Assembly: GCA_044892525.1 (NCBI GenBank)
Contig: CM097887.1
Span: 81,074,397 to 81,138,396, forward strand
Direction of reading: 5' to 3'
DNA from: Schmidtea polychroa
Lineage: Eukaryota
Length of the DNA stretch: 64,000 nucleotides
A model generated the notes under the pieces. That model had not been told where the DNA came from and ran no database searches. It worked only from the letters and a program-made list of their open reading frames with translations. How positions within the stretch are numbered: the first letter of the stretch is position 1; each line of letters begins with the position of its first letter. Made by a program: the position numbers and the translations under genes. Positions 16,448 through 61,085 of this stretch are shown piece after piece.

Positions 16448-16601
16448 GTACCCGTTGAGTAATCAACGTTGGTACTGTACCAAGGGTTGAGTACTCACAA
16501 AAAGTGAGTGCATCAAGGCACTATAATTGTCGAGTACTCCATGGGTTCACGGACTACCGATAGAAGGTGTGTGTCCGATTTCTCAGGTCCCTTATCAAAA
16601 T
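16448..16601. ncRNA. Conserved structured module, copy 1 (bulged stem-loop 16448-16475 plus SL-like segment 16556-16601)
   Basis: GTACC-CGTTGA-gtaa-TCAACG-TT-GGTAC; homologous to 25795-25823 and 61021-61049. Confidence 0.6.
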
Positions 16602-16670
16602 TGTTTTCCCAAAATCTCAACTCACTAATTCTCAATCACTCGATATTTGCGGACAATACACCTCATATAC

Positions 16671-18164
16671 TGCCCGACACTATTTTTAGCACAGTAAGAA
16701 ATTTCGTTACAAAATCATGAATAATGTAATAAATGAAATAAATTTTGTATGATTGTAATTAATATAGTAATACTTTTAATAATTATCACTACTTAGACAT
16801 ATATTATTTTTTGTTTAAATAATATTTGAATTCTTAGGTTTTTTAAAAATTAAAATACGACACAATTTTTAGCACACTTTAAAGATTTTTAAGTATTAAT
16901 AATTTTAACCTATTCTTTTATACTACTTTATATGATTTTAATGTTTATAATAATTTTAGAATTGATTATGAGATCTCCAGATTTAAAGAAAGTTGCTATA
17001 AAGATGAAACAGGAAGGTAACAGTTATGGTGCAATTGGCACCATTTTGGGCATGTCTAGATATGTTGTTAAGAATTTAGTCACCTACAAATATGTGTTAC
17101 ATAAACGCAAACGTGGAAACAGAAGAAAAATAAGTAAAGCAGACGCGTTATCCATCAAAAGAGAAACTGCACGGATAACGAGAGCACAGGAAAAAGTTAA
17201 TTCGCCCAAGATCAAGAGAAATTGTGGGCTAGCTGTATCAACAAGGACAGTACAAAGGTATATGCAGCTTGCTGGTATGAAATACGCAAAAAGTTATCAC
17301 GAAATCATCCTATCTAAGAAACACAAGGAAGAAAGAATGAAAGTGAATACAGAATGGATTTCGACCAATCACATTTGGGAGAATACTATATTCTCAGACA
17401 AAAAAAGGTTCACACTTAATGGACCAGATTGTTGGATGACATATATTCCGAAAACATCAAAATATGTGCGTAATATTCGGCAATGTCATGGAGGTGGAAT
17501 TATGGTCTGGCTGATGATCCTTCCTAACGGAATTCTATCTTTCCACATGATAACTGGCAAATTTAAGTCGACCGATTACATTACCCTGTTGAAGACCTTT
17601 GCTGTGCCAATAATGAAAGTTAACCTAAAGAGGAATTTTTACTTCCAGCAAGACAATTGCACAGTACACAAAGCACGGATTGTCCAAGATTATCTGAAAT
17701 CAAGTAATATATCAACGATTACATGGCCGTCACGAAGTCCAGACTTGAACATAGTTGAGGATGTCTGGAAGATGATTTCAGATATGGTTTATGACGGACC
17801 GCAGTTCTTAAACATAGCTGTTTTAGAAAAAAAAATTACGGATGTCATATCTCTTATCAACTGTACCAGGCGACATAAAATTTTGGATTTCTATGCATCA
17901 ATAAGATTGAGACTGTGTAAAGTTCTGAGTAATCACGGAAATTTGTATAATTGTTAAGTGTGCTAAAAATTGTGTCGTATTTTAATTTTTAAAAAACCTA
18001 AGAATTCAAATATTATTTAAACAAAAAATAATATATGTCTAAGTAGTGATAATTATTAAAAGTATTACTATATTAATTACAATCATACAAAATTTATTTC
18101 ATTTATTACATTATTCATGATTTTGTAACGAAATTTCTTACTGTGCTAAAAATAGTGTCGGGCA
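16671..18164 (+). mobile_element. Full-length Tc1 transposon with about 209-bp IR-DR TIRs
   Basis: 16671-16879 is the reverse complement of 17956-18164 with no mismatch seen. Each TIR carries outer and inner direct repeats CGACAC(T/A)ATTTTTAGCACA(G/C); TA-flanked. Confidence 0.95.
16932..17957 (+). CDS. Tc1 DD34E transposase (likely start ATG 16968)
   Basis: Uninterrupted ORF with N-terminal HTH, RG(N)RRK linker, IFSDKKRF, FQQDN, WPSRSPDLNIVEDVW; 34 residues between the second D and E. Confidence 0.95.
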   Translation: MILMFIIILELIMRSPDLKKVAIKMKQEGNSYGAIGTILGMSRYVVKNLVTYKYVLHKRKRGNRRKISKADALSIKRETARITRAQEKVNSPKIKRNCGLAVSTRTVQRYMQLAGMKYAKSYHEIILSKKHKEERMKVNTEWISTNHIWENTIFSDKKRFTLNGPDCWMTYIPKTSKYVRNIRQCHGGGIMVWLMILPNGILSFHMITGKFKSTDYITLLKTFAVPIMKVNLKRNFYFQQDNCTVHKARIVQDYLKSSNISTITWPSRSPDLNIVEDVWKMISDMVYDGPQFLNIAVLEKKITDVISLINCTRRHKILDFYASIRLRLCKVLSNHGNLYNC

Positions 18165-18259
18165 TACAACACTTGTTAACTAAATTGTTTTTACACCATA
18201 ACAATAAACAACCAAAAATTCAATGCGTATAGTCCAGATGACTGTTCGTATTGCTGGGA

Positions 18260-18691
18260 TTACGTGGGCGTCGCCCTTTCTTGTCGTTCATACTCGGCTA
18301 ATCTGGCCTTCTTTAGCTTTTCCCGGATGTTTCGTCCCAGCCGCTTCCTTTTGGGCTTATCTTTCGCGGCCGGAGGGTAAATTGCTGCCAACTCCACGGT
18401 CAACTGCCGGATTTGACTTATTGTGGCTCCGTGAACCGCTTGTTCATTGCGTTCGGTTTTTAACGCGCGGAGTTGGAGCTTCAAGGCCCAGATCTCCATC
18501 TGATCCTGTGCGGCTTGGGTCTGCAGTTGGAGGACCTGCGCCACCTTCTTTTTCATATCCTGGGGACTAAACCAGGTGCTTTCTAGTTCCCGGCACCGTC
18601 CCTTGAGTCTGTCCACTCGGACTCGGAGATCCTCGGCCTGTTTTTGTGCTTCTTCCCTGTCCTTCCGTAGGTTCTCCAATAGTTTGAACAC
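18260..18691 (-). CDS. Coiled-coil protein of the multi-ORF element, cluster A (ORF2)
   Basis: 143-codon GC-rich ORF with heptad pattern and basic C-terminal motif; homologous to the 26979-26178 frame (LESTWFSPQDMK vs LESTLFSPPLMK). Confidence 0.6.
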   Translation of the reverse strand: MFKLLENLRKDREEAQKQAEDLRVRVDRLKGRCRELESTWFSPQDMKKKVAQVLQLQTQAAQDQMEIWALKLQLRALKTERNEQAVHGATISQIRQLTVELAAIYPPAAKDKPKRKRLGRNIREKLKKARLAEYERQERATPT

Positions 18692-18928
18692 TAAAAGAAA
18701 TATTCTTAGATTATGTTATTACACCATGATATTCGCTTGATAAGATCGGTACTGGTTATAAAGACATTTTATCATTATTGAAGACCAACCCATTTTTACG
18801 ATAATTTATTAAAGAAGAAACTCATTCAAAGTAAAGTTCATCATCAAATCAAATCTTATTAATTCATTACAGAGGAGATTGGTTCAGAGTAAATTTCATG
18901 TCTATCGCGAGTTAGAATTGAGGACGAG

Positions 18929-19259
18929 TTAGGCCGGGTACTTGCGAGGCCTCCCCCTTTTTCGCGGGGTCGCCTCGGCCTCCCCCAGGTCCTCCAGAGT
19001 CTTTCCTTCTCGGATTGCCCGGATTTGCATGTCGAGTTTCTTCAGTCGCATCTGGGCCGCGTAAAAGGTCGTTTCCCGGCTCCTCCTTCACCCACGCCGG
19101 GGCATCTACTTCGAGGCCCTTCCGGATCACTCGATCTGTGCAGTCCAGGTCCCGTCCCTGACTCCACCGATGGATGTGGTACCAAATGTACCGGGTCCGG
19201 AGTCGGGTGATCGTCTGCCGATCGGCTTCTTCGATGCTGCTGCTGTCAGAGAAGATCAT
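18929..19259 (-). pseudogene. Small AT-hook protein, cluster A ORF1, with a 1-nt frameshift near 19075
   Basis: The +1 frame after ...WVKEEPG reads TTFYAAQMRLKKLDMQIRAIREGKTLEDLGEAEATPRKRGRPRKYPA*. Confidence 0.6.
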
Positions 19260-19784
19260 TTCTGCAAAGTAACAATCAGGTCACTTTATACAGATTATGT
19301 TACGAAGTTAAACACGGGATTTTGTTAATCCCTTTTCCCCCTTTTTAAAAATTCAACGTTAACGAAAAAGAAAATTCTTTATTTTCCAGCTAACACATAT
19401 AAGCCTAAGAACAATAGATTAAAATCACATTCATTATCAACTAGATTAAAAAGGAATTTCGTCGAAAATCCGTTTGTTTAAATTAATCATTTACATTCCA
19501 GAATTTTTTTACCACTAAGTGGTAATTTTAATTGCTATTTATAAATTTTAGTTTATACTTGAATAAAATGTAAAGTTTTTGGATCATCATTTTTAGGCCA
19601 CTAAATTCGGGCACGCTGGGGCGACAGGTGCTAGCAACGAACTAAGCTCTTCGTCTGCTTACCTTTCCTTCGGTTGTGCTCGTTATGAGTGGTTTGCTCT
19701 GCATACAAGTAATTTATTTAATTTGCTAATTTCTAAATTTCCAGGTGATCGATATCGGATTGGGATATCGATTTTTTGTAGTTA

Positions 19785-20230
19785 ACTGTAATAATAATAA
19801 TACCAATAATAATAACAATGAAATAACGATACTAATAATAATAATGATAATGATAATAATAATATTAATATTAATAATAGCAATGATAGTAATAATAATA
19901 AGAATAATAATAAATTTTAATAATGGTAATGATAATGGCAATAACAACAACACTAATAATAATAATAATAACAAGAATAATAATAAATTNNNNNNNNNNN
20001 NNNNNNNNNNNNNNNNNNNNNNNNNNNNNNNNNNNNNNNNNNNNNNNNNNNNNNNNNNNNNNNNNNNNNNNNNNNNNNNNNNNNNNNNNNNNNNNNNNNN
20101 NNNNNNNNNNNNNNNNNNNNNNNNNNNNNNNNNNNNNNNNNNNNNNNNNNNNNNNNNNNNNNNNNNNNNNNNNNAATGATAATGATAATGTTGATACTGC
20201 TAATAGTAATAACAAGGGAAATGATCAGGA
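19785..20230. repeat. Degenerate (AAT/GAT/AAC)n low-complexity tract around an assembly gap (N 19990-20174)
   Basis: Trinucleotide repeats on both sides of the gap. Confidence 0.9.
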
Positions 20231-22924
20231 TTAAGATAACTATAATTTTATAATCCCATGTTTTAGAATTATAAATTTATGTTTTATAATTTATACTTTG
20301 ATAATTTTCGATTTATAATTTTAAATTTTTCAATTTAGGGATTTACAATCTTGTAATTTATAATTATAATTTCATATTTTGAAATTTATATATTCGTATT
20401 TTATAAGTTATAATTGCTTAACTCATAATTTATAAGTTTATAATCTAAAATTTATACTTTTGTATTTTGTAATTCGCATTTTCATACTTTATAATTTGAA
20501 ATTTTTAGTCGACGGAATATACTTCTTACAACTTCCTTTCTATGATCAACATTGTTTTCCGCAGTACTTACAGATTTCCTGGTCCTATTTGTGAATTAAA
20601 ATTCAGAGTTCTAGCGCGCCTATCGCCTATCTGTAACCAATCCTCAGTTGATTTTTATACGAAAAATTGTTTACTACTATCTCTGATCAGACTTTCTCCA
20701 TTAACAATTTACATTTTCAGGATCGACGTGATTTGTACCTAGCTATCGTAATTATTTATAACTTATAGTTTTATAGTTAACAACAAGAATATTACAACTA
20801 AGAGCTTACACATTTACAAACATTTTAAAGTGGGAACTAGATTTAAAAATGTCTATCTTTACTCGGAATCAGCATATCAAGTTATACCTGTACGTATGCC
20901 GAGTATCTCTCTTATTTCTATTACCTTATCAAAGATCCTTACTACAAAATCTAGTTCGGCATATGTCTAAGTATAATTGAAATTACCATTATGGATCAAC
21001 TAGCTACATTAATGTGATTGTAGAATTGTGTAATTTTAGGTACGAGCTCTACTCAAATTAGAACCTTAGTGTAGAGTTATTGTTCAGGATTTTAAGTGTT
21101 GAGTTTAATTGTATATTACGCAATGAGTCGGGAAGAATATTGCTTCCATGGCCCCACTGTGACCACTTCCACAAACCTTAGTGTTGTGTGCTAAGTCAAC
21201 CATTTACGGCTGACCTTAAATAAATACGAAGAGTCAGACGGAGGGTTTCCTCGACCTAACTCCATGGCAGGACCATGAAGTAGTTCGACCTCCGGCTGAC
21301 CCGAACAAAAAGAGCCAAATAATAAGAGATTAATATAATAAAAATAATGCATGTTTGCATGTACTATGAGGATTTTAACAAATTGGATGCAGGACTGAAC
21401 AACGACGCAGTAATACCAGTACGCCGTTGAACATTCGTACATCAAAAAAAAAACATCAAATATGGAATTACTTTAATCTTAAATAAATCAAAACTACATG
21501 ATAATAAAAAATTCAATCATATATACTCACTATGTAGATTGGAAAAGTTTTTGTTCAAAATTTGGCATAAAATAATGATGATTCTGACTGAAACGTGTCA
21601 GTATATATACCTATTTTGTACACTTGTATGTATATATATTTATTTATGCATTAAAACAAACTCGAATTCTTTTTATTCCAGAATTTTCTATTTTGCGATT
21701 TTGATATTTTTAATGGCAATTTTTGTGCCATAATTTTTGTTTTTATTTTTAAATTTTTATTTTTTAATTATTTTTCGTTAATTTGACGTCCATGATGGAT
21801 TTGGAACGGTTCCAGAACATTCTATTTTACTTTTAATTTAATTTTTATTCTAACTGGTGTTTTATGAATTTCTTTTTAAGATTTATTATTTTTAATACTA
21901 ATTTATTTATTTTCTCTAACTTTTATTGTTCTAGCTGGCTTTTGTGATGGTCATCGCCATTTTAATGGAATGTTCTGGGTTTTTCTGGAATTTTTTTCGG
22001 TTTTTATCGTCTTTTAAGTTATTCGAGTCTGTTTTATGTTTATCTGTGTTTATTTAGTTATTTTCGAGTTCTATTTTGCATAACCTCTTGCTTTTGGTAT
22101 AATTTTATTTAATTTCTGTGTTTAGGTTTTTGTTGTTTTTTCCTTTAATTACTATTGTTTATTTGGTGTAGTTTTTAATATTTAACTATACTTTTTGCTT
22201 TTTGCATGCTGTGTACATTTCAGTCACAATTAGAAATTTGGGTCTAGAAGTCAGTTCTAGCCCAACACAATATTCGAGTTATCGGTTCCATAAATCGTAC
22301 CTTTCCACCAAGGTTTGCTGGTAGCTCGTTCGTGCATTTTTCTTATTTATTAATTTTCACTATTACTCCTTTGCATTTATAACTGTATAACGCTTCTCAA
22401 AAAATTCTCGAAAAAACGCCGCTTTCTGATATTAATATAGGTGCTACTAAATTTGGATTCGTAACTGCCATCGTCATCCGATTGATTGCCTAAACACAAA
22501 AGAATTTTTGTCCATATTCATACTCCAAATATTCACTTCATAAAACACTCTTTTAAATTGTAAATTATTCAATCACTTACTCATTTGAACTTGTATTAAT
22601 GATGGTGTAGAAATAATTTAACCTTGGAAATAATTTATATGTTAATTTTATTTACATTATTAAAACTAAATTAATGTCACTGAGAATCTTATCAATTGCC
22701 ATTTGGTGAAAGGTGGTTGTGTATATGAATTAGCATTTTTTTATTTAAATTATTTTATCATAAATTAATTTAAATGAAATTTTAATCAATTAAAATTAAA
22801 TATTCAAGATTTATACAAATCAATTTATTGTACGATTGTAGAATTTCTCTGAATGGATTACGACGAAATCCAGAACTTCTGAGAGCTAGTCCAAGCTGTT
22901 CCAATAGGATATATATGGTAACAT

Positions 22925-24724: not shown

Positions 24725-25794
24725 ATAGATGGGGATTTGATTGCCTTAAAAATATTTTATAAAAATAAATTGTTTCTATTTTATATAGTTTGGACCCATA
24801 ATAAAAACACAATAGGACATATAAAGATTCTGTGTTCACACCAATGCGCAATTAATAGAAGTCTTTATGACAATAAATTAGAGCTTCAACAATATAAATA
24901 AAGCTAAGCAATACAAATGTGTGCATTTGTGTGTCATTAACAAAATTGATATTAAATAGGAGTCTGCCAAAAATAAACATTTACGTGTCGAAAATACAAA
25001 ATGAGGTATATAATAAAATATAATTGATTGTGGGAAAAGACATTAATTAAATGTATCTTCACATAATGACATAATTTACTGATGGATTAATTATAAATTA
25101 ATGTCTAAAATAAAGTATAATGTCGGCTCAATAGCGATTTGGACTTAAATAGGACCAATTTACAGTACACACGTACGTGTCAACGGTGAGCACTATTAGC
25201 TCCAATTGTCTTCGTGAGGGAAGATTTGAGAAATGATGCAAAACAGAGAAAAATTTGACAATTTATTATTATCTTTTTTATTGCATCATGTATTTTTACT
25301 GTAATTATTCTTATAACGTAATTCTTATTTGGATTCGACTCAATATAGACAAAATATAATAAAAATCTCGATCCGACGCGTCGTGTTCAGCAATCAAAGA
25401 AATAAAACTCAAAACCCCAAAAATTATTTATTTCTTAATTGTTCAAATTAGTTATATTTTGTGGGTCGCAGGCATTTTACATTCTACCCTTTCCTGTCGT
25501 TTCCGACACAACTGTGTTTCTCAAACCGTGTGTCGCAAGACTTTTTCGCCAAAAAAGTTAGTAATAAAATAAATTTACAAAAACTTGATCAAGCTTTTTA
25601 CTATGAAAAAGTCGCTTCTGTGGATCAAAATTACAAAAAATTTCCCAAAGAAAGGAGTACACAAAACATTTAATTAGTATTGTTGGGCGCTTAGGGGTGT
25701 GTCGCGATGGTGGTTACTAGGGGTGACGATGGTTGTTCCATAGGGGACTCCTTCCTAGACGCCCATTATGATTTGTCACTATTCTCCCTCATGT

Positions 25795-25973
25795 GTACCC
25801 ATGATAACGAATCATGTTGGTACTGTACATATGGGTTGAGCCCTTGCGTTAGGACTACTCCTCCCGATATTCGCCATTCGGGTTCCTGAATGCCGTTAGA
25901 AGGACTTACATTGGTCTTATCAAGTACCTTTCGTCTCTACTATACATCTGGTTCAAGTGAGGTCGTTTCTAAT
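25795..25973. ncRNA. Conserved structured module, copy 2 (stem-loop 25795-25823; SL-like 25892-25921; HDV-like fold 25863-25973 on minus)
   Basis: GTACC-CATGAT-aacga-ATCATG-TT-GGTAC; about 85 bp alignable by eye with 61005-61085. Confidence 0.6.
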
Positions 25974-26177
25974 TTCCCTTTGTTTCGGAGCGACTGTCAA
26001 ATCAAGAAATGCTTTATGGTTATGAATCACGTAACAAAACACAATAACACTAGACATTCTACATGAAATTATATTAGATTCATTACAAATTAAACATTCA
26101 GCAATTAAGAACACTAATAAATCAATTCACACCATCACTGTTAATAAATACACTCCGATTCTGACACGAGCTGCGGT

Positions 26178-26979
26178 CTAATTCCCAAGCGTATATTTTT
26201 CAATTTCATACGAGCTCTCTTTCGTCGGTAGCATTTTGCCCTCGTCTATCATGGCGGCGATATCTGTCTCCAGGTATGGATCGTGAATGAGTACGGATGT
26301 GGTAGTCGGGATCATCCTATTTAAAGCAGTAGTTGATGCGACTAGCTTAGGCTGTGGTTGATTTTTCCTGGCCTCAGTGACGGCGAATAGAGACGCTTCC
26401 AATGCGGCGATCTCGTCTCGACATTTCTTTAATCGTTCCGCTCTAGTTAAGCGCTTTCACTTTCGGGATTTGATTGAACTGGAATGATATTCGGATTCAC
26501 TGGGGCGGCTAGTGGTATCGTAGTATCCGTGCGAGTAGGCTGCACTCGACTAGTTCCCGTGAAAATGATGTCGGATGTTATGACAGGAGATGTCTCTGAG
26601 CAATGACTGTGGCATCGTTAGGTGGAATAGATAATCATCTCATCTGTCCGAGGGTGAATTGGGAACACATTCAGCTTATCGATAAGCGGAAATTTGCTGA
26701 TACGGTGTTTTAATTCTGCCTCAGAATAAATTCGATGAAGGGCCTCAGACTAGGCCTTGATGATGAGGCAATAGGCAAGCTCTCGCGGCAGTGCTCGAGT
26801 CGTAAAATCTTCTTATTGGCTTACTTCATAAGTGGCGGGGAGAACAACGTGCTTTCTAGCGTGTTGATACGCTTCTTCAGAACCTCGATATAGTCGTTTA
26901 ATTGACGCAGATTTGCGTTTTTGTCGGCACACGAAAAGCAGGGTTTCGGGCCGCGTGATGGAAGGTTCGGTTCCGACAT
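26178..26979 (-). pseudogene. Decayed coiled-coil ORF of the multi-ORF element, cluster B
   Basis: MSEPNLPSRGPKPCFSCADKNANLRQLNDYIEVLKKRINTLESTLFSPPLMK*ANKKILRLE... then frameshifts to KRLTRAERLKKCRDEIAALEASL...; homologous to 18691-18260. Confidence 0.6.
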
Positions 26980-27404
26980 AAGCTAAAAATTCATAAAAAA
27001 CGTCATGGTGTGTTATCAAACTGCTTTGACCAATGAACAATCGAGGCTTTCTCAGTCGTGACACTACTCCCCGTTCGCATACATTCGATCAGCTATTCCC
27101 CGTAAATTCTACATTTTATTACTTCAAACCGACGGGACCTTTACTTGTCGTATCTATCCAAACCAATCATAACATTCTACAACATCCGGAGCGAGATTTG
27201 ATCACGGACTGCATGTGTCTACTTTACCTTTCATCCTACGGATGATTCCCCAAAATTGGTAACCTTCTTAGAGCGGGGTCTAACTATGTTTGACCATGCG
27301 GAATGGCATGGAATAAATAAAACCAAGAAAACTAATTTTAACGCAACCATAAGTTTTCCCATCTACAAGTTAGGTTCTACAAGATTACTCATTGTTAGAC
27401 CAAA

Positions 27405-27912
27405 ATAAATCAATTTTACTGGAGGGAAAAACTTGCATGGGCTGGTGATCGCATTCTCACCCTTTTGTTTGACTTAAACATAGAAGTTTTACCGCACTTC
27501 ACCCATGAAACGATATTTTTATAATTCGACTTATCATCTAATTTATTTACCATTCACTAAGTTTAACATCAACTACTATACATTTCAACTGGATTTAAGA
27601 TTAATTACGCTGTGACATTAATTATGTATGGAATAAACTAGACTTAAGGTGTATATAAAGGTGTACATAAATCAATTTTACTGGAGGGAAAAACTTGCAT
27701 GGGCTGGTGATCGCATTCTCACCCTTTTGTTTGACTTAAACATAGAAGTTTTACCGCACTTCACCTATGAAACGATATTTTTATAATTCGACTTATCATC
27801 TAATTTATTTACCATTCACTAAGTTTAACATCAACTACTATACATTTCAACTGGATTTAAGATTAATTACGCTGTGACATTAATTATGTATGGAATAAAC
27901 TAGACTTAAGGT
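27405..27912. repeat. Near-perfect 246-bp tandem direct duplication (27405-27650 and 27667-27912)
   Basis: Period 262 bp; one mismatch seen (CACCCATG/CACCTATG); 16-bp spacer. Confidence 0.92.
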
Positions 27913-28866
27913 AATTTCAAGATCAATTAGATGATGACAGCGATAAACATTGTGACTAGACTTGGAAATTAAGCAACGGCGGCACTAATTATTGTTTATA
28001 TTCAACGCTGATACACCAAACACCACTGAGATACATTCTCTATAGTGGTGGTTGGCGTGTAAAACAATTTCTCTCACCAATTTACTGTGAATCATCTTCA
28101 TCAATTTACATTCATTTACTGAATTACTTACAATAATGAATTTTTTTTGGAAATTTATTTTAGCCATTTTAGAAATGGCTTTCAGGTAAGATATTTAATT
28201 TTAAGTAAAGTTTAAATCTTGAATTTTGATCGATATGCGATCATTATTCAAGTTCTTAAATTTTACTTTTAGTCAACATTATAATTATAAATTATTTTTA
28301 ATTAATTTTTAGGCATTTTTGATATTTTATGACAAGTATTTTGGAATATTTTCGAAAAAAATGTGAGTTAGATATGTTTTTAATTATAATTAAATAAATG
28401 AATTACCAAAAATATTTACTTTTCTAAAACATTTTGGGAAAAATCACCGAATAATAAAAATAAAATAATTTTTGTAATTTTTTTTTCTGAGCTCAATATG
28501 AGGAGCTTCTTTCAGGAAAGCAAATATGGATTGAAAAGACATTGAACAAAATTCATCTGCTCTTGAAATTTCATTAAAAATATATTTTTAAAAATTTTCA
28601 GCGATCTTTTTTTATCCAAAAATTGTCTAAAATAGAATTATTATAGAAATGTATCTCAGCGGTGCATTTCGATGAATCAAAAGTTTGTATGTGTTTTTTA
28701 GTGTGTGTTGTGTTTGTGTGCAGTTTATAATTTTTCTTCCACTTTTCAGATTTCTATAATATAGGATGTATCTGACTGCACTCTAAATGAGAACATCAAC
28801 GTGAAATCAGAGTAAGTATGTATGTTTCTATAATGTAAGATTATTGATTTTTTTGTTATATTATAG

Positions 28867-29654
28867 GAAATGCATCTGAATGGCGTTTGGTGTATTCAAT
28901 CTCTACAAATTGTTTACAATATCTGACGATTATGAAGTGGCAGTTCTCTAAAATTGTTCACCGGTCGATGTTCAACAGTGCATCCTGTTTACTCTCATTC
29001 GTGACGATGAGTGACGGCGACTATTTCTCTCGGCCAATTTTGGATGTGACAAAGCCTACGAAAATTTCCAAGAATAAACCGGATGTTGTGTCAATTCCCT
29101 CAACGGTGGTGATAATCGGGAATGATCGTCAAAAAATGGAAATCTTATTGTTTATGCTACGTTTTCTGATTCTACATGATATCCTGGGTAGACTGTTAAT
29201 ACTTGCATCGGCTAACCGCGGAAAATTGATGGATTTTAATCGAATACATCGACTTATCGGCAAGTGTTGCAAATCGTTCTAGTCAACATCCTCTCAGAAA
29301 ATACGAGTCTGGACCAATTTCTCGACGATATCAAGTGTTACCGTTGGATTTATTGCTTCTTTGCAAAGATGTTCGCATGTAGTGAGTTGCTTATCAAACC
29401 TACCCAACGAAAGTAGTTGCCTGATGGAACGGATCTGGCATATACATTCATCAATCTATGCACATTACTGATCTAAAGAACCGATGCTCCCTAATTATCA
29501 TTTCCAAATACAAACAAATTTTAAACTTCCCACTTACAATCGCACCTCCGGCGTGCCTATATGCAAAGACAATCTGATTACCACCGGCACAAGTTCCAGC
29601 GACATCCAAATGTATTCCCAAACGGGTTTCGCCACACATATTAATGATAAATAA
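28867..29654 (+). CDS. Coding-like frame with two in-frame stops (29280, 29469); weak resemblance to FNIP/Lst4 proteins
   Basis: TTATAG acceptor at 28866; segments of 137, 62 and 60 codons in one frame; AATAAA signals after TAA 29654; STVVIIGNDRQKMEILLFMLRFLI and SSSDIQMYSQTGFATH recall FNIP motifs. Confidence 0.4.
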
Positions 29655-29739
29655 ATTAAAAATAAATTAAAAATAAATTCATGATTATAAAAATTTCGAT
29701 ACGCAATTTTCGGAAACTAATTTTATTCTAAAGTGCCTC

Positions 29740-30200
29740 ATGCCTTGTTGGTAGCATATTCGCCTTTTCTCGATCAATCCTGCCTGAGCGGCTTGTCTAT
29801 CCGATATCTAATAGTATCAACACATCTTCCCCTTATGACACAGATTCCACAGAACATTGCTTAGCCTGACTCGCTACGAAATATCTTTGACTTCCCCATT
29901 TACCGGGGTTTTCCTCTCTCTCACCTAAACCTCACTTCCTCCTTCTCTCCCAGGACTAACTCCTCATGTTTCTGACCATCATCTGTTGCTATGCTTCATC
30001 AGATCGTTCTCGATAAAATTGATTCTAATTCCTACCAGCAATTCTCGTTCCGATATTTCCTGTCTCAGGAAAGTGATCAATCGTTTCTCAACGGAGTCAC
30101 TTGCTCATCGATTCCTAACATTCTCCAGCCATTGCTTCAACATCTCAGATGCATTCATCATTCATAGATGTTGCCCAGAACACATTCAAATCATTCTTTT
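29740..30200 (-). pseudogene. Ty3/Gypsy gag-protease remnant
   Basis: Stop-ridden E/R-rich frame followed by GEDVLILLDIG (cf. retropepsin LLDTG). Confidence 0.45.
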
Positions 30201-31371
30201 CTGAAATGGCATTACTAAATCGCAAAATCATCGACAATTAATTTAATTTGCTAAGTTTAAATAAATGATGTAAAGAGAAAAAAGAGAGAACATTTGTTAA
30301 TATTTTAACCTATTTAAATGTTACATAGTAAAATAATTGCATATACATAAAATAAAAATAAATCAAAAATTTACATTCTTGCTAATTCTTATTTAACGAG
30401 TCCAAAATTCTCGAGTCGAGTACTATGCTGTGATTTCCAATTGACAATAAGGTTCGGAATTTATATTTAATGTTGAAATTGTCCCTAATGATTGACCGGA
30501 ATTAGAATTTTAACGATTGACCTGAATAAAATTTTTAAGAATTGAGGGAATCAGTCAAGTCGCTTTCTTATATACTAATTTTCGTCCAATCAGGATCCAG
30601 CTATTGTGTAAAGTTGTGTTTTTTCTCTTTTTTATTCTTTTTAACCCTTTTCTTAAGGTTGTTTATTTCTTTTATTTTGTAATTTATTAAATATTTTAAT
30701 TTTTCTTATTTTCCTCTTTCTTTTGTTGGATCCTGTTAGTTATTCGGTTTGTGATTTTGTATTCTATTCTTTTTTGTTTTTCTTAATTATCGTTTTATGT
30801 TGATTTTTTTCTGATATTTTGCTTTGCCTATCAGTCATGATTGTGTGTTCTGTTTGTTTAAGAGTTATTTGATGTCTATTTCGTTTTGGTGATTTTATTT
30901 ATTATTTTATTTTATTTATTATTTCTCCCTTTCCTTATTCTTCATTTTCCTTAATACTTGACTGATTAGCCTCAATTTGATGCTATACACAAGGTTTTAT
31001 TTAGTTATTTTACAGAAAAATTCAGGTTTTCCGGTTTTTAGCCCAACAAATCACTCCGGGGCCCGTTAAAATTGCGTCCCGCAATTTACATGCAAAACAA
31101 TATTCCTATACCTCCCACCATTTTTATAACTAAAACATAAAAAAATTTTTATTATAAGATAACGTGCAAATACAAGACAAGCAGGGGTCACTTAAGGTGA
31201 ACAGTTTTTTTATACAACCAATTCAAGTTCGTTCAGTTTGAATGTTAACCGCGTCAAACAAAATTGTCTAAAATATTGTTATGCTGGATTTTTGTTGGAT
31301 TTCGCAATCGTCTCTGGAGCTTCTGTTTGGGCGGTTTGGCACTATTGTTGAAGTGCTGAGTTGGATTGTGG

Positions 31372-33136
31372 CTAGGGTGTCCTTGTTTGTCCAAGTGCCT
31401 GAGGTTGGTTGGATTTCGGAGATTTACTGAATCGAACTGTTTTCTCTATTTTTTCAAATTTCTGAGAACATCTTATCTTCGATATTGGAGTGGCTTGGTG
31501 ATTTTTTTGCCACATTCGGTATGACTTATATGATTTCCAGGTGGCTAATATGAAGATGACGAGGGTTTCAATGATTATAATGTAGAGTAGGATACGGCTG
31601 TCTTTCGTTTCTTTTCGATGTATATCCTCTTTTTGGGATTGTTGAGTGACTTGTTGTTGAAGGAGGGATTCTAGTTGCTCGATTCTCTGGGTTTGGAAAA
31701 TGAGCTGCGCTTGGATTATCTGACAGACGGGTTAGGAAAAGTTTATTTTAACGGTTTATAACATTACAGGCCAATTAAGGCATAAGTAGAGAACTTCTTC
31801 AACCCTTCATTATAAAAAGATTTTACATAGCTCTCATAGGGCGTCGAGTCTAAGACTCGAGCGTCAAACGTTGTTTAACAATTTTCCATAGGCAGTTGAT
31901 GGAGGCCCATGTGTGTCGGAGTGTGCCAGATATGATCATGGGGTAGGGAGCCAAAAGCATCAGTGATATCGAGCCAGATGATGTGGAGTTCCGTTTTATT
32001 GCGGACAGAGAAGTCTTTGATGAGGTGTAGAGTTAGGTTATGTTCAGCGCTGCCATCCGGGGTGCCAATGGCTTTTTGGTTAGTGGTAAGTAGATTGGCT
32101 TGCCTGATCCAGGATAGGATGCGATGATTAAGGACAGAGGAAAAGATACGGTATGCAGTGTTCATGGCTCGTTTCATGTTTCCCTTGTTTAAGTATCAGT
32201 TTGGTCCGAAAGGTCTTCCAGCTTGCAGGGGGGGGGCATATCGAGGTGGAAAGTATGCTGTTACAGATAGCAAGAAGGGGTTCAATATCGAGGCATATCT
32301 TTTTCCAGTCAGGTAAGGTAATCTTGTCGATGCCTGGGGCAGTGTTGTCCGGTGAGGCGATAGTGGAGGAAGGTCATCAATGTCAATACGGATAGAAGAT
32401 GTATTTTCCGGAAATGAAGGAAACGATAAATCAGTGAGGTCGGATATGGGTGTATAGCCCCGAAGAGAAGAAGTATATTAGCCTTTGTGGGCCTATGTAG
32501 AGATACGGCCGCCCCAATGATTTTCCCAATCTCGTCTTTGGGTTTCGTGCGGAATCTGGTACGTTTAATGCATAGGAGCTCATTTTCCGATTTCAATTTT
32601 TTGTGCGCGGCGTCTGCTGGTTTTATTGTCTTGTATCTGTCTGGGTTGACGTTGCCATTCATTCGTTCAATCTCGTTAAGGGCTGATTGGACGTATATTA
32701 GGTTATGGGAAAGTTGTTCAGTGAGGTTTATGAGGAATATGTGGTATTTTCTGATATTACAAATAGGTATCCTATTATAGATGAAAGTTGAAATGATCTG
32801 CCTGAAAGTTGAGCATGTGGCCTAAGTCAGGAGTGGTAATGGGAGTGTGTGAGTTAAGGCATTTCAGAATGTGATATATGTATTGTGCAGACTCAAGTGG
32901 TGTCAAGCATCGTGGGTATTCAAGATTCGTTAGTGACAGGGTGACTTGGCTGACGATATTTTCCAGCACTGTTTCTGGATATTGTTGTAATAGCTTCTCA
33001 CGTCTACGATGGTGGTTAGTTGATTTAGATTGTGTAGATGATTCTCTGGGATCTTCGAGATTTTATGGGATGGTTGCTTCATAGGTAAACTATTTGCGAT
33101 GTGCTTCATTCCTATGAGGATTGCTCCGTACCACAT
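31372..33136 (-). pseudogene. Type I membrane (env-like) glycoprotein gene of cluster C, frameshifted and interrupted by an RT fragment
   Basis: Signal-like N-terminus MWYGAILIGMKHIANS; NLT sequon; Q-rich coiled coil IEQLESLLQQQ; TM ILLYIIIIETLVIFILATW (31593-31537); basic cytoplasmic tail to TAG 31372. Confidence 0.5.
31900..32600 (-). mobile_element. Internal fragment of an RLE-type non-LTR retrotransposon RT (R2/NeSL/Utopia group)
   Basis: DNTAPGIDKI, SWKTFRTKLILKQG, YRIFSSVLNHRIL, NQKAIGTPDGSAEHNLTL, LHIIWLDITDAFGSLPH (RT domains 0-3); no YADD, RLE or 3' end. Confidence 0.85.
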
Positions 33137-33239
33137 ACTAGTATACATATATTTTATTTACAATTTATTTACACCGTCTTTATTTATCTTTAGTTATCGG
33201 AGGGGTTTCCCTTATTAGCTTTCTCGGACAACCACATCA

Positions 33240-35926: not shown

Positions 35927-35955
35927 GTCATATTGTAATTTGTTTGAGTGAAGAT

Positions 35956-40271: not shown

Positions 40272-40379
40272 AAATACAATGTCAAGGGAAAAGAAATCAG
40301 TGATGAAATTTGAAAAAAAAGTTCTTATAATTATTATATAATATATACGATTTAAAAAGCATATCTAAGGAAACTCTTT

Positions 40380-43005: not shown

Positions 43006-43065
<60 letters not shown>

Positions 43066-55714: not shown

Positions 55715-58676
55715 CTAACGGATGAGAATCCTAATATGGTGGCAGCGGTTTACACCGACGCGATCACCTAAAGATTGTTGCCGAAGGAGTTTGGTTCATA
55801 AGTTCATAAGAAGATGCGAAAGGCATCAATAAAAAAAGAACAAGAAAGATTGATTGCATGTATGATCGCGGATCTATTGGAGAAATATGGACAACATTTA
55901 AAAAAGCAAGAGGATTTCAAGCCAGGTTACGAATGGCATTTGATTATGAAAGAGATCTAATAAAGGGTATGGAAAGTTTATTGAATTATAAAAGAAGAGC
56001 GAAGAGATTGAAACATATTTTAAAAGAGTAGAGGACTTTGTCGACAAGTGGTTTGAGAATAAAGAATTCACCTAAGACAAAATAACAGCAAAGATATTGA
56101 TAGTATATGCTGAGAATAAAGAAGATGAGAAAGAAGTAATATTGCGGAAGAAAAAAAGCATAGAGGAGATAAGGGAATCATTAATTCTAAAGTGGACAAA
56201 CAGAGAGATCAGATAAACGCTATGAAATTACGCAATAGTGGTCTATCAGTATCCACAGAGAAGACAACATTACAAGCAGAAAGATGAAAAAGAGGAACAC
56301 GGGCGACGAGAAGAACCATGACACAAAATATGCCACACGAAAATAGACTGTCCAGTAAGAAGTAAGATAGAGTGTTGGACGTGTCACAGAAGCGGACAGA
56401 TAATTAGAAATTGTGTATAACAAGCTACAGGGAAGACCTAGTGTAACAGTAATGATGAATGGGGAAATTTTCGACTGTTTATTAGACACCGGAGCACGAA
56501 TAAACGTAACGAGTGTGAACTGTTTTAACAAGTTACGAGGACAACAATTGATGAGAAGCGACGATAAGTTACGATGTGCAAACGAAAGTGCGATAGAGAC
56601 AATTGGAAGAACAAAGGTTAAAGTAACTATCACAGATATTACTAAGGAAGTTAGATTCATTGTGGCTGAGAAAGTGACACCAGAGGTGATTGGAGGAGTA
56701 GAATTACAAGAAGCATTTGGATATAGGCTGGCAAAAAAGAAAGATATCGAATCTAGTTAAAAAGACAAGAACTATATTTGTAACATTGAAACAAAATTCG
56801 GCAGACAGATAAAGGATAGAGAAAGATTGAAGCGAGCGTTGGAACATCTAAAGATTGATGAGGATAGTAAATTAAAGGAAATAATAACGAACAGTGGAAA
56901 CTTGTTTATGGCGGATAAATGGGGTGTGGGTCGAACGCATTCAGTAAAATATAAGATAATTACAAGAGGTGAACCGATAAACATAAAACCATATCGTCAA
57001 CCAATAAATTTGGAAACAAAAATGTATACGAAAACTGGATTATACGGAAATGCAACTCTCCGTGGAACACACCGTTAATCTGTGTATCCAAAAAGAGAAA
57101 AAGAATATTAGTCTATGCTTGGATTTCAGAAAGCTGAACGCAGTAACAGAGAGGCAGGTATTCCGAATGCCAAACATAGACGAAATGTTAGATTTGTTAG
57201 GAGGGTCCGTTTTTTTAGTTCAATCGACCTTGGTAATGCACATTACCAAGTGGAGTTAGACGAAGAAGCGTAAGAGAAAACAGCCTTCTCAACAAAGAAA
57301 GAGCAATACTGTTTCAATAGAATGCCGTTCGGAATTGCTGCAGCACCAGGTATGTTCCAGGAAACGAAGACAAAAGTAATAGGCAAAATAAATGGAGCAA
57401 TTTTGTATTTGGATGACATTCTGATTTATTCGAGCAGTAAAGAAAAGCATTATACAATACTCAGGGAAGTATTAAAAGTGATCGAGGAAGCAGGACTAAA
57501 AATTAACCCAGAAAAGTGTCAAATAATACAGAAAGAAATCAGATTCTAAAGACACAAAATCGGCAAAGAAGGAGTACAGACCGATCCTTCTAAGATTCAG
57601 ACTATATAAAACTTTGGGAAACCAATTTCCGTAAAGAAACTTCGAAGCTCTCTAGGCATTTGCAATTATTATAGAAGATTCATCAGTAAGTATGCTAAGA
57701 AATCAAAGATGTTAGAACAATTATGTAGCATTCCGAGTAAAAAAAAACTTGAATGGACTGAAGGAATGAATAACTTATTCGAGGAAGTATATCTTGGGTA
57801 TAATAGACCAGTATAATAAGTATCAAGTCTTGACAGCTATAATAAGACAAGACGAGGAAACAATAAAGAAAACGATTTCAGAAAAATGGATTTTAAGATT
57901 TGGATGCCAAAGGAGATAAGAGTTGATTGTGTGAAGGCGATTGAATGAGGAATGATGAGAGAATTAACAAAGAAACTTGATATTAAGTTATGTTTTTCGA
58001 GTCCATGCCATCACCAAACAAATGGACAGATAGAAAGGCAATTCAGGACAATACGAAAGCTAATAAATGATACTTAACGTGACAGAAGAAAGACGGATTG
58101 GGCAGAGATACTACCAGAAGTCGAATTTACATTAAATGCAACCAAACAATAAACGACAAGAAGAAGCCCGGCAGAGATAGTGCTTGGAAAAAAGATTAGC
58201 AAGGAAAAATAGTACGGGTCAAAAGAAAAACAAGTAAAAGAATAACAAGAACAAACAAGGAGGAATTTTGACGTAGAAGAATATGTGTTAGTAAAATTAG
58301 AAACACGCAACAAAAGCCAGGACAGTTATGAGGAACCATATAAAGTGATCGAGAAAGTGCATGACAGACGATACATCTTAAGAAATGAGAATGGTAAAAA
58401 GATTGAAAGAAAAGTGGAAAAACTTAAAAAATTTCTTAAGAAGGGGAATATGAGGAAGATTGAAGATTCTAAAAGTTTTAATTAGAAATTTTGTAAAATT
58501 TTAAAAATATTTTTATCGAAAAATATTTTAAAAGAAAAATTGAAATTTGTTTAAATAAGAAACAAAAGAAAAGATAAGTTTTGAGTGTATAATTTATTAA
58601 ATAAAATTTATGGAATTATTTAGTGATTTGCAAACAGATATTAAACAGCATGTTCTAACGGATGATTATCCTAATA
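55715..58676 (+). mobile_element. Decayed Ty3/Gypsy LTR retrotransposon (gag-PR-RT-partial IN; RNase H and part of IN deleted)
   Basis: CLLDTGA protease; CLDFRKLN, MPFG and LYLDDIL RT motifs; SPCHHQTNGQIERQFR integrase; PPT AAGAAGGGG before TG at 58451; LTR-end motif CTAACGGATGA..ATCCTAATA at 55715-55736 and 58655-58676. Confidence 0.9.
55737..55749 (+). promoter_or_regulatory. Primer-binding site, complementary to a tRNA-Leu 3' end
   Basis: TGGTGGCAGCGGT immediately after the LTR-end motif. Confidence 0.7.
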
Positions 58677-59116
58677 TAGGTAAAAATTCATGCTATTTTT
58701 TTTGCTTAACTTAGCCCAACTTAATTGGAAACGACACCAACATCACTTCTTTCCGATTTGTGGTTTCTGAAATAGTTGGACCAAATCATTACAAATTCCC
58801 ACATAGATTATTGAAATTCTGCAAAATTCTCTAAATTAAATATGAGTTGAAGAAATAAACATGGAAAAATTAATATGAGTGGAAATGATTATTATTAAAA
58901 GGAACAACAAAATATGGTCTTGGAATTCGCTATTTTTCTACAAGCTAAAAAGCTTTTAACAATATTTTTATTTATAAAAAACTATTTTTAAATAATAATT
59001 AAAATAATTTTTTATTGTTTTTGACAATTTCTTTCTCTAGTATTTAAAATTTGATATTTCATCAATCCTTATAAAACAGATTATTTAATTTCATAAAATT
59101 TCAAAACACAGAATCA

Positions 59117-59553
59117 CAGGGCCCTAACAAGGGTGGTGCGAGCGGTGCAGTTGCATAGGGCGCACATCTGAAAGGGGCGCAAAATTGGGATGTACCAATT
59201 TTTTAATATCACCAAAAAATATAAATAAAAAATAATAAATGACATGAACGAAAAAAAATCGACATCCTAGCTAGCATATCCTTAATATTACTAGTTGGAC
59301 TGGTCCATTAGCGTGCCTTCGTAGGTGTGTATTTTATAAAATGTTAGTCCACAAAATGGGTTCCTGTCATTTTTTCAATTAGCAACAGAATTTTAAGAGC
59401 ATTACTACCAATTATATACTACCTGGAGATGAATACAGTCAACAATCTTAACATGAACATTATAATGATTATAGTAGACTGTTTTGAATTCGCGTGTTGG
59501 AGCGCCAGATATATGAACCGCACAGGGCACAATTATGCCTTGTTACGGCCTTG
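59117..59553. mobile_element. hAT MITE
   Basis: TIR CAGGGCCCTAACAAGG / CCTTGTTACGGCCTTG; perfect TSD CAGAATCA. Confidence 0.88.
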
Positions 59554-60932
59554 CAGAATCACAATCCAAAATAAATTATTTCATCATCATTCAAAGTTCC
59601 TGTTAACTACAGAATTCTCAAATAAAAATTTAAAAATTAGTTTTTCAATATTCAAAATGGCTTTAAAAATTGAATAAAAAATCTCCATACTATGACTTTA
59701 TGTTTTAACTTTTATACTCTGATGTTCTGATATCACATTTCGTTTCATTATTGTCAACCGAAAATTATGTAATTGCTTTCATTTATATATCTCGAATTAA
59801 CAGCCGGCCGTTTGGACTTGATAAGGATCACTTCCTTAAATTAAAGTTTTTTTAAGTCATTGTCGTCTCTTTGATGCATATTTTATTTGCGAAATGATTA
59901 TTGTAGAATCCATATTTTGAGGTATATACATCGGTTTTTATTGACGCCAATCGTTTCAAAATTAAAGTTTGAATCGACGTATTCTTTAATGAAACCAATC
60001 CAATATATCTGGTTTAACATTAAATGACCAGACGTCCAAGATCATGCGGGACTCCACTGGATTTGAGCTGTTTTTCACTCACTGAACGCTAACATGTAAC
60101 CCTTTGGTTTAGGTAATATATAAAAGCACAAGATAAAACGGAATCACAATAAAAATCAAAAAAGCACCAAAATAATAAAAGTTCAAAAGTTAATTAATCA
60201 ATCACGCGGCTCTTATTGGTCAGGAGCATTGTTGATGGCAACAATATTAATACTTCCTTGGATGGAAACCATTATTAATGTTATCTTTAACCATACCACC
60301 TAGGCAATTATTTAGGTCACGAATATGAGACTGGTGAGTGTGAGGAATCCCTTATTTCCCATTTCAATTGATACTAAGATGATTCGATATTATGGAGGTC
60401 ATTCATATAGTTGTTGCTCTTATCAGTACTATGATGAACAGGGCGGATTATTTCTATTATATTTATCATATGCAGTATATGCATTAATATTCTTTCGATT
60501 TATTTTGTAGTTCTCATCAACGTATCAAGAAAGCAGCGAATCATCGAAACAAATACAGAACCCGAGTTCAATATTTCATTCGTTGTGTACATGTACAAAG
60601 ACGTCCTGTTCAAATTAAATGAACTCTTGACTAACGCAGAGGCCAATTTCATCTAGTATTTTCGACTACTGGGTCTCTGAAACATTTCCATAAATAAGAA
60701 TATTTGGTGGCTTGAATTTTTTCATAACGATATTTGTACAGTAATATAGTTTACGAATTTATAGTTTGAAATTTGTTCTTTTCATTCGTATTAATTTCTG
60801 TGTTTAGTTAGTTTATTAATAAGTATAGTAAACAATTGTCGCGTTGTGAGTGGCATGATGTTTGATCTTGTTATGACATTGACAGAATCATAAATTTCTC
60901 ATTCAACTCTTAGAAAATAGTTTCCGATCGAT

Positions 60933-61085
60933 ATAAGACCTTCCATCGACCGTCCAGAATTTCAGATGGATGCCAAGTAGAGAAGCACACATGTTTACTC
61001 ACACCCAACCACTATATGCAGTACCAACATGGTCTGTCACCATGGATACGCAGGGAATTAGTTATCAATAATCACATGGCCTTCT
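60933..61085. ncRNA. Conserved structured module, copy 3 (opposite orientation to copies 1 and 2)
   Basis: GTACC-AA-CATGGT-ctgtc-ACCATG-GATAC at 61021-61049; SL-like 18-mer at 60933-60950 on the minus strand. Confidence 0.6.

What the first reader, a model, noticed from the sequence alone, without database searches (positions are those of the whole stretch)
16448..61049. Bulged stem-loop conserved in three dispersed copies with compensatory changes
Copies at 16448-16475, 25795-25823 and 61021-61049 all form GTACC/GGTAC (5 bp; one mismatch in copy 3), an AA bulge (read on the ORF-sense strand), then a 6-bp stem. The 6-bp stem sequence differs but pairing is fully kept: CGTTGA/TCAACG, CATGAT/ATCATG, CATGGT/ACCATG. 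The flanking sequence is far more diverged. This covariation indicates selection on an RNA or ssDNA structure. In copies 1 and 2 it lies downstream of the ORF clusters, so it could be a replication, packaging or RT-recognition signal.
Basis: seen in the sequence. Interest (0 to 1): 0.8.

Follow-up and report, generated by a model that had tools for sequence, protein, structure and literature searches.

The report
Conserved hairpin in giant retrotransposon ends
The hairpin is a real, selected fold that sits near one end of decayed, roughly 4-kb jumping-gene repeats (probably the long terminal repeats of a giant retrotransposon) in an invertebrate genome, where such elements usually keep signals for copying and processing their RNA.

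Summary
The three hairpins exist as described. The inner-stem arms are only 4/11 to 10/12 identical between copies, yet 32 of 32 cells pair, which independent decay of an ancestral palindrome almost never gives (simulated P about 1e-6 to 6e-6). With three sequences the covariation shuffle test is only borderline (22 of 500). Copies 1 and 2 lie 77 and 114 nt from the end of two collinear units of about 4.3 kb (16371-22267, 25681-31048). Both start TGTTGGGCTA, end CCCA(C/A)CA, open with a 600-nt A-rich tract and carry small ORFs behind splice-acceptor-like sites; unit 1 has a 4-bp target-site duplication. These ends fit the integrase-end consensus of LTRs. Copy 3 is a fragment of the same end. 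The hairpin is one of about four in a conserved 230-nt terminal domain, with no Rfam match. Best reading: a cis-acting RNA signal in the R/U5 end of giant Gypsy-like LTRs (unit 1 a solo LTR). Not shown: the parent element, primer site, polypurine tract, poly(A) signal, active strand and function.

The parts
16448..16475 (-). Bulged hairpin B, copy 1 (the finding); 77 nt from the CA end of unit 1
25795..25823 (-). Bulged hairpin B, copy 2; 114 nt from the CA end of unit 2
61021..61049 (+). Bulged hairpin B, copy 3, in a fragment that holds only the terminal domain (about 60930-61100)
16371..22267 (-). Unit 1: about 4.4 kb without the Tc1 insertion (contains a 185-N gap); starts TGTTGGGCTA, ends CCCACCA; probable solo LTR
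16367..16370 (-). Target-site duplication ATTG after the CA end of unit 1
22268..22271 (-). Target-site duplication ATTG before the TG start of unit 1
   Evidence: this 4-mer has frequency 0.007 per position
25681..31048 (-). Unit 2: about 4.2 kb without a 262-nt tandem duplication and 28011-28895; starts TGTTGGGCTA, ends GCCCAACA; flanks GATT/ATAC, no duplication
21601..22250 (-). A-rich tract opening unit 1
   Evidence: (one of 3 such tracts in the window)
30451..31048 (-). A-rich tract opening unit 2
16558..16567 (-). Conserved block A (CCTTCYAWCG), copy 1, with a GATAAG motif upstream; possible core-promoter or R start
25894..25903 (-). Conserved block A, copy 2
60939..60948 (+). Conserved block A, copy 3, directly after GATATAA
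16528..16560 (-). Hairpin D, copy 1 (counterparts about 25870-25897 - and 60946-60975 +)
   Evidence: z -3.4, -2.3, -1.1 in ORF sense; -0.3, -2.1, -0.3 on the other strand; RNAalifold found no common fold on the MAFFT alignment
16486..16520 (-). Hairpin C, copy 1 (counterparts about 25836-25866 - and 60976-61003 +; weak in copy 2)
   Evidence: z -3.7, -0.7, -2.2 in ORF sense; -4.7, +0.2, 0.0 on the other strand
16374..16421 (-). Terminal stem E of unit 1, closing on the CCC just before the end
   Evidence: z -3.1 and -2.6 on the two strands
25684..25765 (-). Terminal stem E of unit 2
   Evidence: z -2.0 and -2.2
18912..19259 (-). ORF-A of unit 1, 115 aa, behind an acceptor-like site; no family or atlas hit
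18260..18691 (-). ORF-B of unit 1, 143 aa, long helices with a Lys/Arg-rich C-terminal part, behind an acceptor-like site; one outside relative P0001 (39%, E 2.6e-20)
26821..26982 (-). Short ORF of unit 2 related to the N-terminal part of ORF-B
   Evidence: iE 0.005, the only other hit of the profile below iE 20 in the window
19658..19665 (-). Splice-donor-like site upstream of the ORFs in unit 1 (unit position 2603); unit 2 has one near 27230 (position 2672)
   Evidence: by motif only
15457..15750 (+). A further, diverged copy of the unit start, opposite orientation
   Evidence: (score 47, null maximum 32.5, 0 of 200)
16671..18164 (+). Tc1/mariner transposon inserted at TA inside unit 1 (secondary, not part of the system)

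Best explanation
The hairpin is a cis-acting RNA element in the conserved end of the long terminal repeat of a family of large Gypsy-like LTR retrotransposons. Unit 1 is a solo LTR of about 4.4 kb left by recombination between two LTRs; unit 2 is a second, diverged LTR; copy 3 and the piece at 15457 are fragments. Read in ORF sense, the LTR has a long variable U3 (A-rich start, then small spliced accessory ORFs) and a short R/U5 of about 230 nt. Transcription would start near the GATAAG/block A region, so hairpins D, C, B and E would form the 5' leader of the genomic RNA, just ahead of the primer-binding site in a full element. Hairpin B has an invariant bulge and invariant bases on one side and a freely varying upper stem, the pattern of a scaffold that presents a binding site for a protein or the primer tRNA. 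Its most likely job is control of reverse-transcription initiation, packaging, or 5' versus 3' LTR processing. Shown: the fold, its conservation, the unit ends, one duplication, the collinear layout. Inferred: LTR identity, orientation, start site and function.
For: Ends match the general LTR integrase-end consensus TGTTRNR...YNYAACA (PMC3601003): 7/7 at both starts, 7/7 at the end of unit 2, 6/7 at the end of unit 1. TGTTGGGCTA occurs exactly twice in the window (0.06 expected), once at each unit start. Unit lengths 4401 and 4221 after removing insertions, with the same composition profile; 2 of the window's 3 strongly A-rich tracts open the units. Unit 1 has a 4-bp duplication; 4-bp duplications around solo LTRs are reported for a flatworm LTR family (PMC4558846). 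Related ORFs in both units. Detectable DNA conservation is concentrated at the hairpin end, as R/U5 is said to be more conserved than U3 and to carry stem-loops. LTRs of 1.9-6.5 kb (Ogre) and giant planarian Burro elements with MATH and Smc-like domains are known (PMC6431247); a MATH fragment and coiled-coil ORFs lie upstream of unit 2 on the same strand. The Ty1 5' end is highly structured and carries signals for priming, dimerization and packaging (PMC4974528).
Against: No full element, second identical LTR or linked gag-pol was seen. Unit 2 has no duplication, no TGG primer site after it and no polypurine tract before it. No AATAAA in the last 940 nt of unit 1 or the last 1440 nt of unit 2 in ORF sense, although it is the best conserved motif of animal Gypsy LTRs. 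The two unit starts share no significant alignment beyond the first 10 nt (58 of 200 shuffles as good). The strand evidence is split. The insertions removed from unit 2 were chosen by me, so the length match is partly dependent on that. The MATH/coiled-coil block is not shown to belong to unit 2. Three copies only; covariation 22 of 500.
Confidence: 0.55

Rival explanations
1. Same LTR-like units, opposite orientation: the hairpin domain is the start of U3, so it lies in the 3' untranslated part of the genomic RNA right after the polypurine tract; the ORFs are antisense and the T-rich tract is U5.
For: Copy-3 mismatch is G.U on this strand; RNAalifold -21.0 vs -13.5 kcal/mol; AATAAA hexamers lie just before the terminal T-rich tract on this strand in both units; Ty3 has primer-pairing segments in its 3' UTR and Sire LTRs have a stem at the U3 start.
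Against: Hairpins D and C mostly fold better in ORF sense; U3 is normally the variable part; AATAAA is frequent in AT-rich DNA; no primer site follows unit 2 on this strand either.
Confidence: 0.17
2. The unit is a complete non-autonomous DNA element moved by a retroviral-type integrase (Ginger-like), with its own small transcription unit; the hairpins are 3' end signals of that transcript.
For: TG...CA ends and a 4-bp duplication also fit such elements (recalled, not from a call); internal donor-like and acceptor-like sites suggest a self-contained transcription unit; no internal retrotransposon part is linked.
Against: Terminal inverted repeat is only 7-8 bp; no integrase or transposase in the units; a multi-hairpin domain at one end only is more like an LTR.
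Confidence: 0.1
3. 3' UTR recognition signal of an R2-group (restriction-like endonuclease) non-LTR retrotransposon, with copy 3 a 5'-truncated insertion.
For: An R2-like RT remnant (31878-32195; E 0.0002 to an R2 protein structure; RVT_1) lies upstream of unit 2 on the same strand; R5/LIN elements are diverse in planarians (PMC4640811).
Against: The RT is outside unit 2 and over 6 kb from the hairpin; unit 1 has no RT yet has both ends and a duplication; no poly(A) or repeat tail at the ends.
Confidence: 0.05
4. No selection: an ancestral palindrome kept paired by template switching or conversion between its arms.
For: GTAC is self-complementary; 7 of 11 pairs never vary; shuffle test borderline; my simulation assumes independent arms.
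Against: The bulge and the bases beside it are invariant, whereas arm-to-arm copying would tend to erase a bulge (inference); further hairpins and block A are kept at the same spacing.
Confidence: 0.06
5. Block A is a relic of a spliced-leader RNA exon on the strand opposite the ORFs, and the hairpin belongs to its upstream promoter region.
For: Copy 3 has a one-mismatch match to an 11-nt piece of the Schmidtea SL1 exon shown in Fig. S6 of PMC10899757; a longer likeness to the exon's first bases is recalled, not checked.
Against: Matches with up to 2 mismatches are below chance (6 seen, 10.7 expected) and include neither copy 1 nor copy 2; by eye no Sm site like the one follows in the three copies; the host is not shown to be a planarian.
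Confidence: 0.04

Closest known systems
Solo LTRs of Ty3/Gypsy (Metaviridae) retrotransposons; LTR consensus of PMC3601003 (passages)
   Same: TGTTRNR...YNYAACA ends, short duplication, conservation and stem-loops concentrated at one end.
   Different: About 4.3 kb long, carries ORFs with splice-like sites, no AATAAA near the conserved end in ORF sense.
Burro/GYPSM1 giant Gypsy elements of planarians and Ogre of plants (PMC6431247, section read in full)
   Same: Multi-kb LTR scale; MATH and coiled-coil remnants nearby; accessory ORFs.
   Different: No sequence comparison with Burro was possible; the section read does not describe ORFs or RNA folds inside the LTR; host not shown to be a dugesiid.
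Structured leaders of LTR retroelements: Ty1 5' domain, Ty3 bipartite primer site (PMC4974528, passages); U5-IR stem of Rous sarcoma virus and its Tf1 analogue (seen only as reference titles and one passage)
   Same: A run of hairpins at the LTR end, with a stem closing next to the integrase end.
   Different: No sequence relation; no primer site in view; function untested.
Complex retroviruses with U3-overlapping ORFs and a bulged leader hairpin bound by a small basic protein (MMTV sag, HIV nef, TAR-Tat; all recalled, from no call)
   Same: ORFs in a long U3 reached by splicing; a bulged hairpin in R/U5; a small protein with a basic region.
   Different: No homology; invertebrate host; binding not tested.
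Cassandra, Helenus, Ajax: LTRs holding small-RNA-derived sequence (PMC10886601, first of six parts read)
   Same: A conserved RNA-like block inside an LTR.
   Different: Those are under 1 kb and tRNA- or 5S-derived; here no tRNA and no Rfam family.

Membership tests
LTR of Ty3/Gypsy-type retrotransposon | Short inverted ends TGTTRNR...YNYAACA | tested here: met
   7/7 at both starts, 7/7 and 6/7 at the ends (consensus)
LTR of Ty3/Gypsy-type retrotransposon | 4-6 bp target-site duplication around a solo LTR | tested here: inconclusive
   Present for 1 of 2 units: ATTG/ATTG for unit 1, GATT/ATAC for unit 2
LTR of Ty3/Gypsy-type retrotransposon | Primer-binding site after, or polypurine tract before, an LTR that is still attached | tested here: not met
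   Neither at unit 2 in either orientation; not expected for a solo LTR such as unit 1
LTR of Ty3/Gypsy-type retrotransposon | AATAAA near the 3' end | tested here: not met
   None in the last 940 nt (unit 1) or 1440 nt (unit 2) in ORF sense; present near the other end on the other strand
LTR of Ty3/Gypsy-type retrotransposon | Two near-identical LTRs flanking gag-pol | not testable with these tools
   No such pair in the window; the rest of the genome was not available
Burro/GYPSM1 | Giant polyprotein with Gag, MATH, Smc, BIR, env-like, PR-RT-RH-IN | tested here: inconclusive
   MATH fragment 35549-35716 (E 2.4e-9) and coiled-coil ORFs upstream of unit 2; linkage not shown; no Burro sequence on hand
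Known structured RNA families (ribozymes, snRNA, SL RNA, 5S and others in Rfam 15) | Covariance-model match | tested here: not met
   No match at E<=1 at the three loci; local scans to E 10 gave 4 weak hits, all far below gathering score
tRNA-derived LTR or SINE (Helenus type) | tRNA-like sequence | tested here: not met
   ARAGORN 0 genes; a decayed tRNA could be missed
R2-group non-LTR retrotransposon 3' end | RT-endonuclease ORF directly upstream; tail; ragged 5' ends | tested here: not met
   No RT in either unit; defined TG starts
Helitron 3' end | Hairpin about 10 nt before a CTRR end, no duplication (recalled) | tested here: not met
   Similarity runs on past that point to a CA end 77-114 nt away, with a duplication in unit 1
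Ginger-type DNA transposon | Terminal inverted repeats of tens of bp (recalled) and an integrase | tested here: not met
   7-8 bp only; no integrase hit in the unit ORFs scanned
Spliced-leader RNA gene | SL exon, GT donor, Sm site | tested here: inconclusive
   One 10/11 match in copy 3 only, at chance level; host SL unknown

The most novel reading that the evidence does not exclude
An invertebrate Gypsy-like element has independently evolved the regulatory layout of complex retroviruses: its multi-kb LTR encodes small spliced proteins, and ORF-B, whose Lys/Arg-rich C-terminal part is kept in the outside relative P0001, binds the invariant bulge of hairpin B in the leader RNA to switch on transcription, export or packaging, as Tat-TAR or Rev-RRE do (analogy recalled). 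Thousands of solo LTRs could then still express this regulator.
Probability: 0.1. Interest if true: 0.8.

Novelty: new variant of a known kind. Interest (0 to 1): 0.45.

Why it matters
Structured RNA at LTR ends is known in kind, but the detailed cases I saw are yeast elements and vertebrate retroviruses. A fold kept across LTR copies that are only about 50% alike would give a testable cis-signal for giant invertebrate Gypsy-like elements, and a covariance model that can find their decayed LTRs where sequence search fails (blastn at E 1e-3 did not link these three copies). An LTR that carries spliced accessory ORFs would extend a trait of complex retroviruses to these elements. One phrase search for ORFs inside retrotransposon LTRs returned nothing; that is weak evidence of absence, and the main Burro paper was not available.

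Tried and rejected
Rfam, whole window and three local scans: nothing at the loci. Covariance model from the three copies, unfiltered search of the window: no fourth copy, next hit 14 bits, E 0.14. Extra 12-mer matches at 45776 and 45973: no hairpin. By-eye fits to HDV-like, hammerhead, twister, group I/II intron, RNase P and tRNA-like folds (motifs recalled): none held in all three copies. ORF-B: word-index search none, Pfam and PHROGs none, atlas only weak unnamed clusters with low recognition, model is plain long helices with pTM 0.32 and no viral fold match below E 0.001. ORF-A: no atlas hit. Second coiled-coil-like stretch in unit 2 (26181-26456): not significantly like ORF-B. RT remnant search for longer proteins: none. 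The small Gypsy at 55.7-58.7 kb as parent of copy 3: rejected, it has its own LTR ends near 55737 and 58450-58678. The 15457 and 22267 starts as terminal inverted repeats of one DNA element: no duplication, and no partner for unit 2. Shared flank upstream of unit 2 and the 15457 copy: not significant (72 of 300). Start-like site at 58721: 9 of 200 against unit 2, not accepted. Host identity: 0 of 7 proteins found by exact look-up; best GalNAc-transferase relatives about 54% over most of the length, long branch, tree unresolved (quick tree only, 43 of the 120 listed hits used). Sigma-70 promoter scan was irrelevant to a eukaryote. The bacterial genome, phage and plasmid collections were not searched. 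Viral and metagenome contigs stayed unchecked.


Full report
Setting. The window is AT-rich eukaryotic DNA with host genes (KDEL receptor, GalNAc-transferase, aldolase, a C4 zinc-finger exon) among many transposon remnants: Tc1, hAT, Gypsy and an R2-like RT. The host is an animal with no close relative in the protein collection: the best GalNAc-transferase relatives are about 54% identical and the branch is long and unplaced. A planarian-like flatworm is suggested by a MATH fragment and a sub-threshold match to mir-753 (40.6 bits, cut-off 62; that this family is planarian is recalled), but it is not established.

Observation. The three hairpins are present as described. On alignment A3, 32 of 32 cells of the 11-pair fold pair on the strand opposite the ORFs; 3 pairs change on both sides, 1 on one side, 7 never vary; 22 of 500 shuffles match this, and sliding the partners drops pairing to 25-66%. 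The inner arms are 4/11, 6/11 and 10/12 identical, while the alignment outside the hairpin is 46-57% identical. A star-tree simulation in which both arms of a perfect 6-bp ancestor decay independently kept all pairs, given three or more varying pairs, with probability 6e-7 to 6e-6. So plain decay of a palindrome is rejected, but arm-to-arm copying is not modelled, and the finding was picked by eye. The shape alone is common (20 hits, mostly AT repeats; 2.1 per shuffle); shape plus sequence occurred in 0 of 20 shuffles. A model built from the three copies finds no fourth in the window, and Rfam has no match at these loci.

The hairpin is part of a larger domain. A block CCTTCYAWCG lies about 70-80 nt upstream (ORF sense) in all three copies (3 found, 0.13 expected), preceded by GATAAG or GATATAA. 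Copies 2 and 3 align over about 190 nt. Single-sequence folds show two further hairpins between block A and hairpin B, and a terminal stem after it in copies 1 and 2. These windows were chosen after seeing the folds, and RNAalifold found no common fold for hairpin D on a sequence alignment, so they are weaker than hairpin B.

The domain is the end of a unit of about 4.3 kb. In copies 1 and 2 the terminal stem closes on CCC followed by ACCA or AACA (16371, 25681). The inverse of this end occurs 10 times on the + strand, so one hit proves little. But two of those hits, at 22267 and 31048, share the exact 10-mer TGTTGGGCTA, found nowhere else (0.06 expected). They lie 4401 and 4221 nt from the respective ends once insertions are removed, and each is followed by an A-rich tract; these are 2 of the 3 such tracts in the window. 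Unit 1 is flanked by ATTG on both sides (frequency 0.007). Unit 2 is not. Both units hold a donor-like site near position 2600-2700 and small ORFs behind acceptor-like sites at about 3.0-3.9 kb. ORF-B of unit 1 has one relative among 1.84 billion representatives (P0001, 39%, E 2.6e-20, unnamed), and a profile of the two finds the unit 2 ORF at iE 0.005. So the ORF family is real and shared. A further start lies at 15457 (0 of 200 shuffles as good). Against: the starts of units 1 and 2 do not align significantly beyond 10 nt.

What it most likely is. The ends fit TGTTRNR...YNYAACA, the integrase-end consensus of LTRs, and that paper states that R and U5 are more conserved than U3 and that conservation in long R regions is tied to stem-loops (PMC3601003, passages). 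Solo LTRs with 4-bp duplications are reported in a tapeworm (PMC4558846, passages). LTRs of several kb and giant planarian elements with MATH and Smc-like domains are known (PMC6431247, one section read whole). I therefore read unit 1 as a solo LTR and the hairpin domain as R/U5. By analogy with Ty1, whose 5' end is compactly folded and holds priming, dimerization and packaging signals (PMC4974528, passages), hairpin B would present its invariant bulge and neighbouring bases to a protein or to the primer tRNA. This step is inference.

Results against this reading. No paired LTR or linked gag-pol is in view. Unit 2 has neither duplication, primer site nor purine tract. AATAAA is absent from the conserved end in ORF sense. 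The strand evidence is split: hairpin D favours ORF sense in all three copies (marginally in copy 2) and hairpin C in two of three, whereas copy 3 of hairpin B and the consensus fold favour the other strand. Two defining LTR features were thus tested and not met, so I do not file the units as proven members of the Gypsy family: they are built like LTRs, and membership awaits a full element.

Rivals. The same LTR in reverse orientation (0.17); a non-autonomous integrase-moved DNA element (0.10); neutral palindrome maintenance (0.06); the 3' end of an R2-group element (0.05; planarian R5/LIN diversity from PMC4640811, passages); a spliced-leader relic (0.04; SL1 seen in Fig. S6 of the supplement of PMC10899757; match at chance level).

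Literature seen. Besides the above: PMC10886601 (first of six parts); passages of PMC8629364, PMC12582326, PMC3796463, PMC8532177 and PMC11410931 that did not bear on the claim; supplement searches without hits in PMC7346339 and PMC11410931 (one file of the latter had no text). The supplement of PMC12582326, which may list flatworm SL RNAs, could not be read. The Burro genome paper and the planarian SL3 paper were not held; either may already describe these LTRs or settle the SL lead. Searches for a multi-ORF trans-spliced retroelement with a stem-loop and for ORFs inside LTRs returned nothing; these are narrow phrase searches. MMTV sag, HIV nef, TAR/Tat, Ginger and Helitron end rules are recalled.

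Verdict. A real, selected hairpin in the conserved terminal domain of unusually long, ORF-bearing LTR-like units. Known in kind, not matched to any described family by the tools at hand: a new variant of a known kind, interest 0.45. The bold reading, a Tat/TAR-like circuit encoded in an invertebrate LTR, has probability about 0.1 and would deserve 0.8.

Noticed in passing
window 16671-18164: Tc1/mariner element with perfect 209-nt inverted repeats and a 341-aa transposase ORF, inserted at TA inside unit 1; looks recent.
   Followed up: partly
window 31049-35720, - strand: A-rich block: MATH fragment, several broken coiled-coil ORFs, an R2-like RT remnant (about 31880-33150) and a 119-aa ORF with a hydrophobic stretch, all co-oriented; MATH plus coiled coil recalls Burro elements.
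   Followed up: partly
window 31372-31731, 33481-33903, 26821-26982: These ORFs begin in phase 0 behind acceptor-like sites, and the first has no ATG near its start; a flatworm-type spliced leader ending in ATG could supply the start codon (leader end seen).
   Followed up: no
window 28208-28262: Hairpin matching Rfam mir-753 at 40.6 bits (cut-off 62), inside the 28011-28895 insertion in unit 2; possibly a repeat-derived microRNA-like hairpin.
   Followed up: no
window 55720-58680, + strand: Decayed small Gypsy element with a TGG primer site near 55738, a purine tract near 58440 and a 3' LTR of about 230 nt that starts TA rather than TG.
   Followed up: partly
window 22925-24724: Intronless 599-aa polypeptide GalNAc-transferase between units 1 and 2; best relatives about 54% identical.
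   Followed up: partly
window 58712-58721, - strand: Near-copy of the unit start 10-mer (one mismatch) just beyond the small Gypsy; similarity to the unit 2 start is marginal (9 of 200).
   Followed up: partly
window 27405-27912 and 20263-20504: A 262-nt tandem duplication (99.6%) in unit 2, possibly an assembly artefact, and a 22-nt tandem array plus an AAT tract in unit 1.
   Followed up: no
window 61704-61730: A hairpin of the same 5+2+6 shape but unrelated sequence, probably chance.
   Followed up: no
window 40130-40280 and 4452-4576: Inverted-repeat MITE-like family, with several hAT transposase remnants elsewhere in the window.
   Followed up: no
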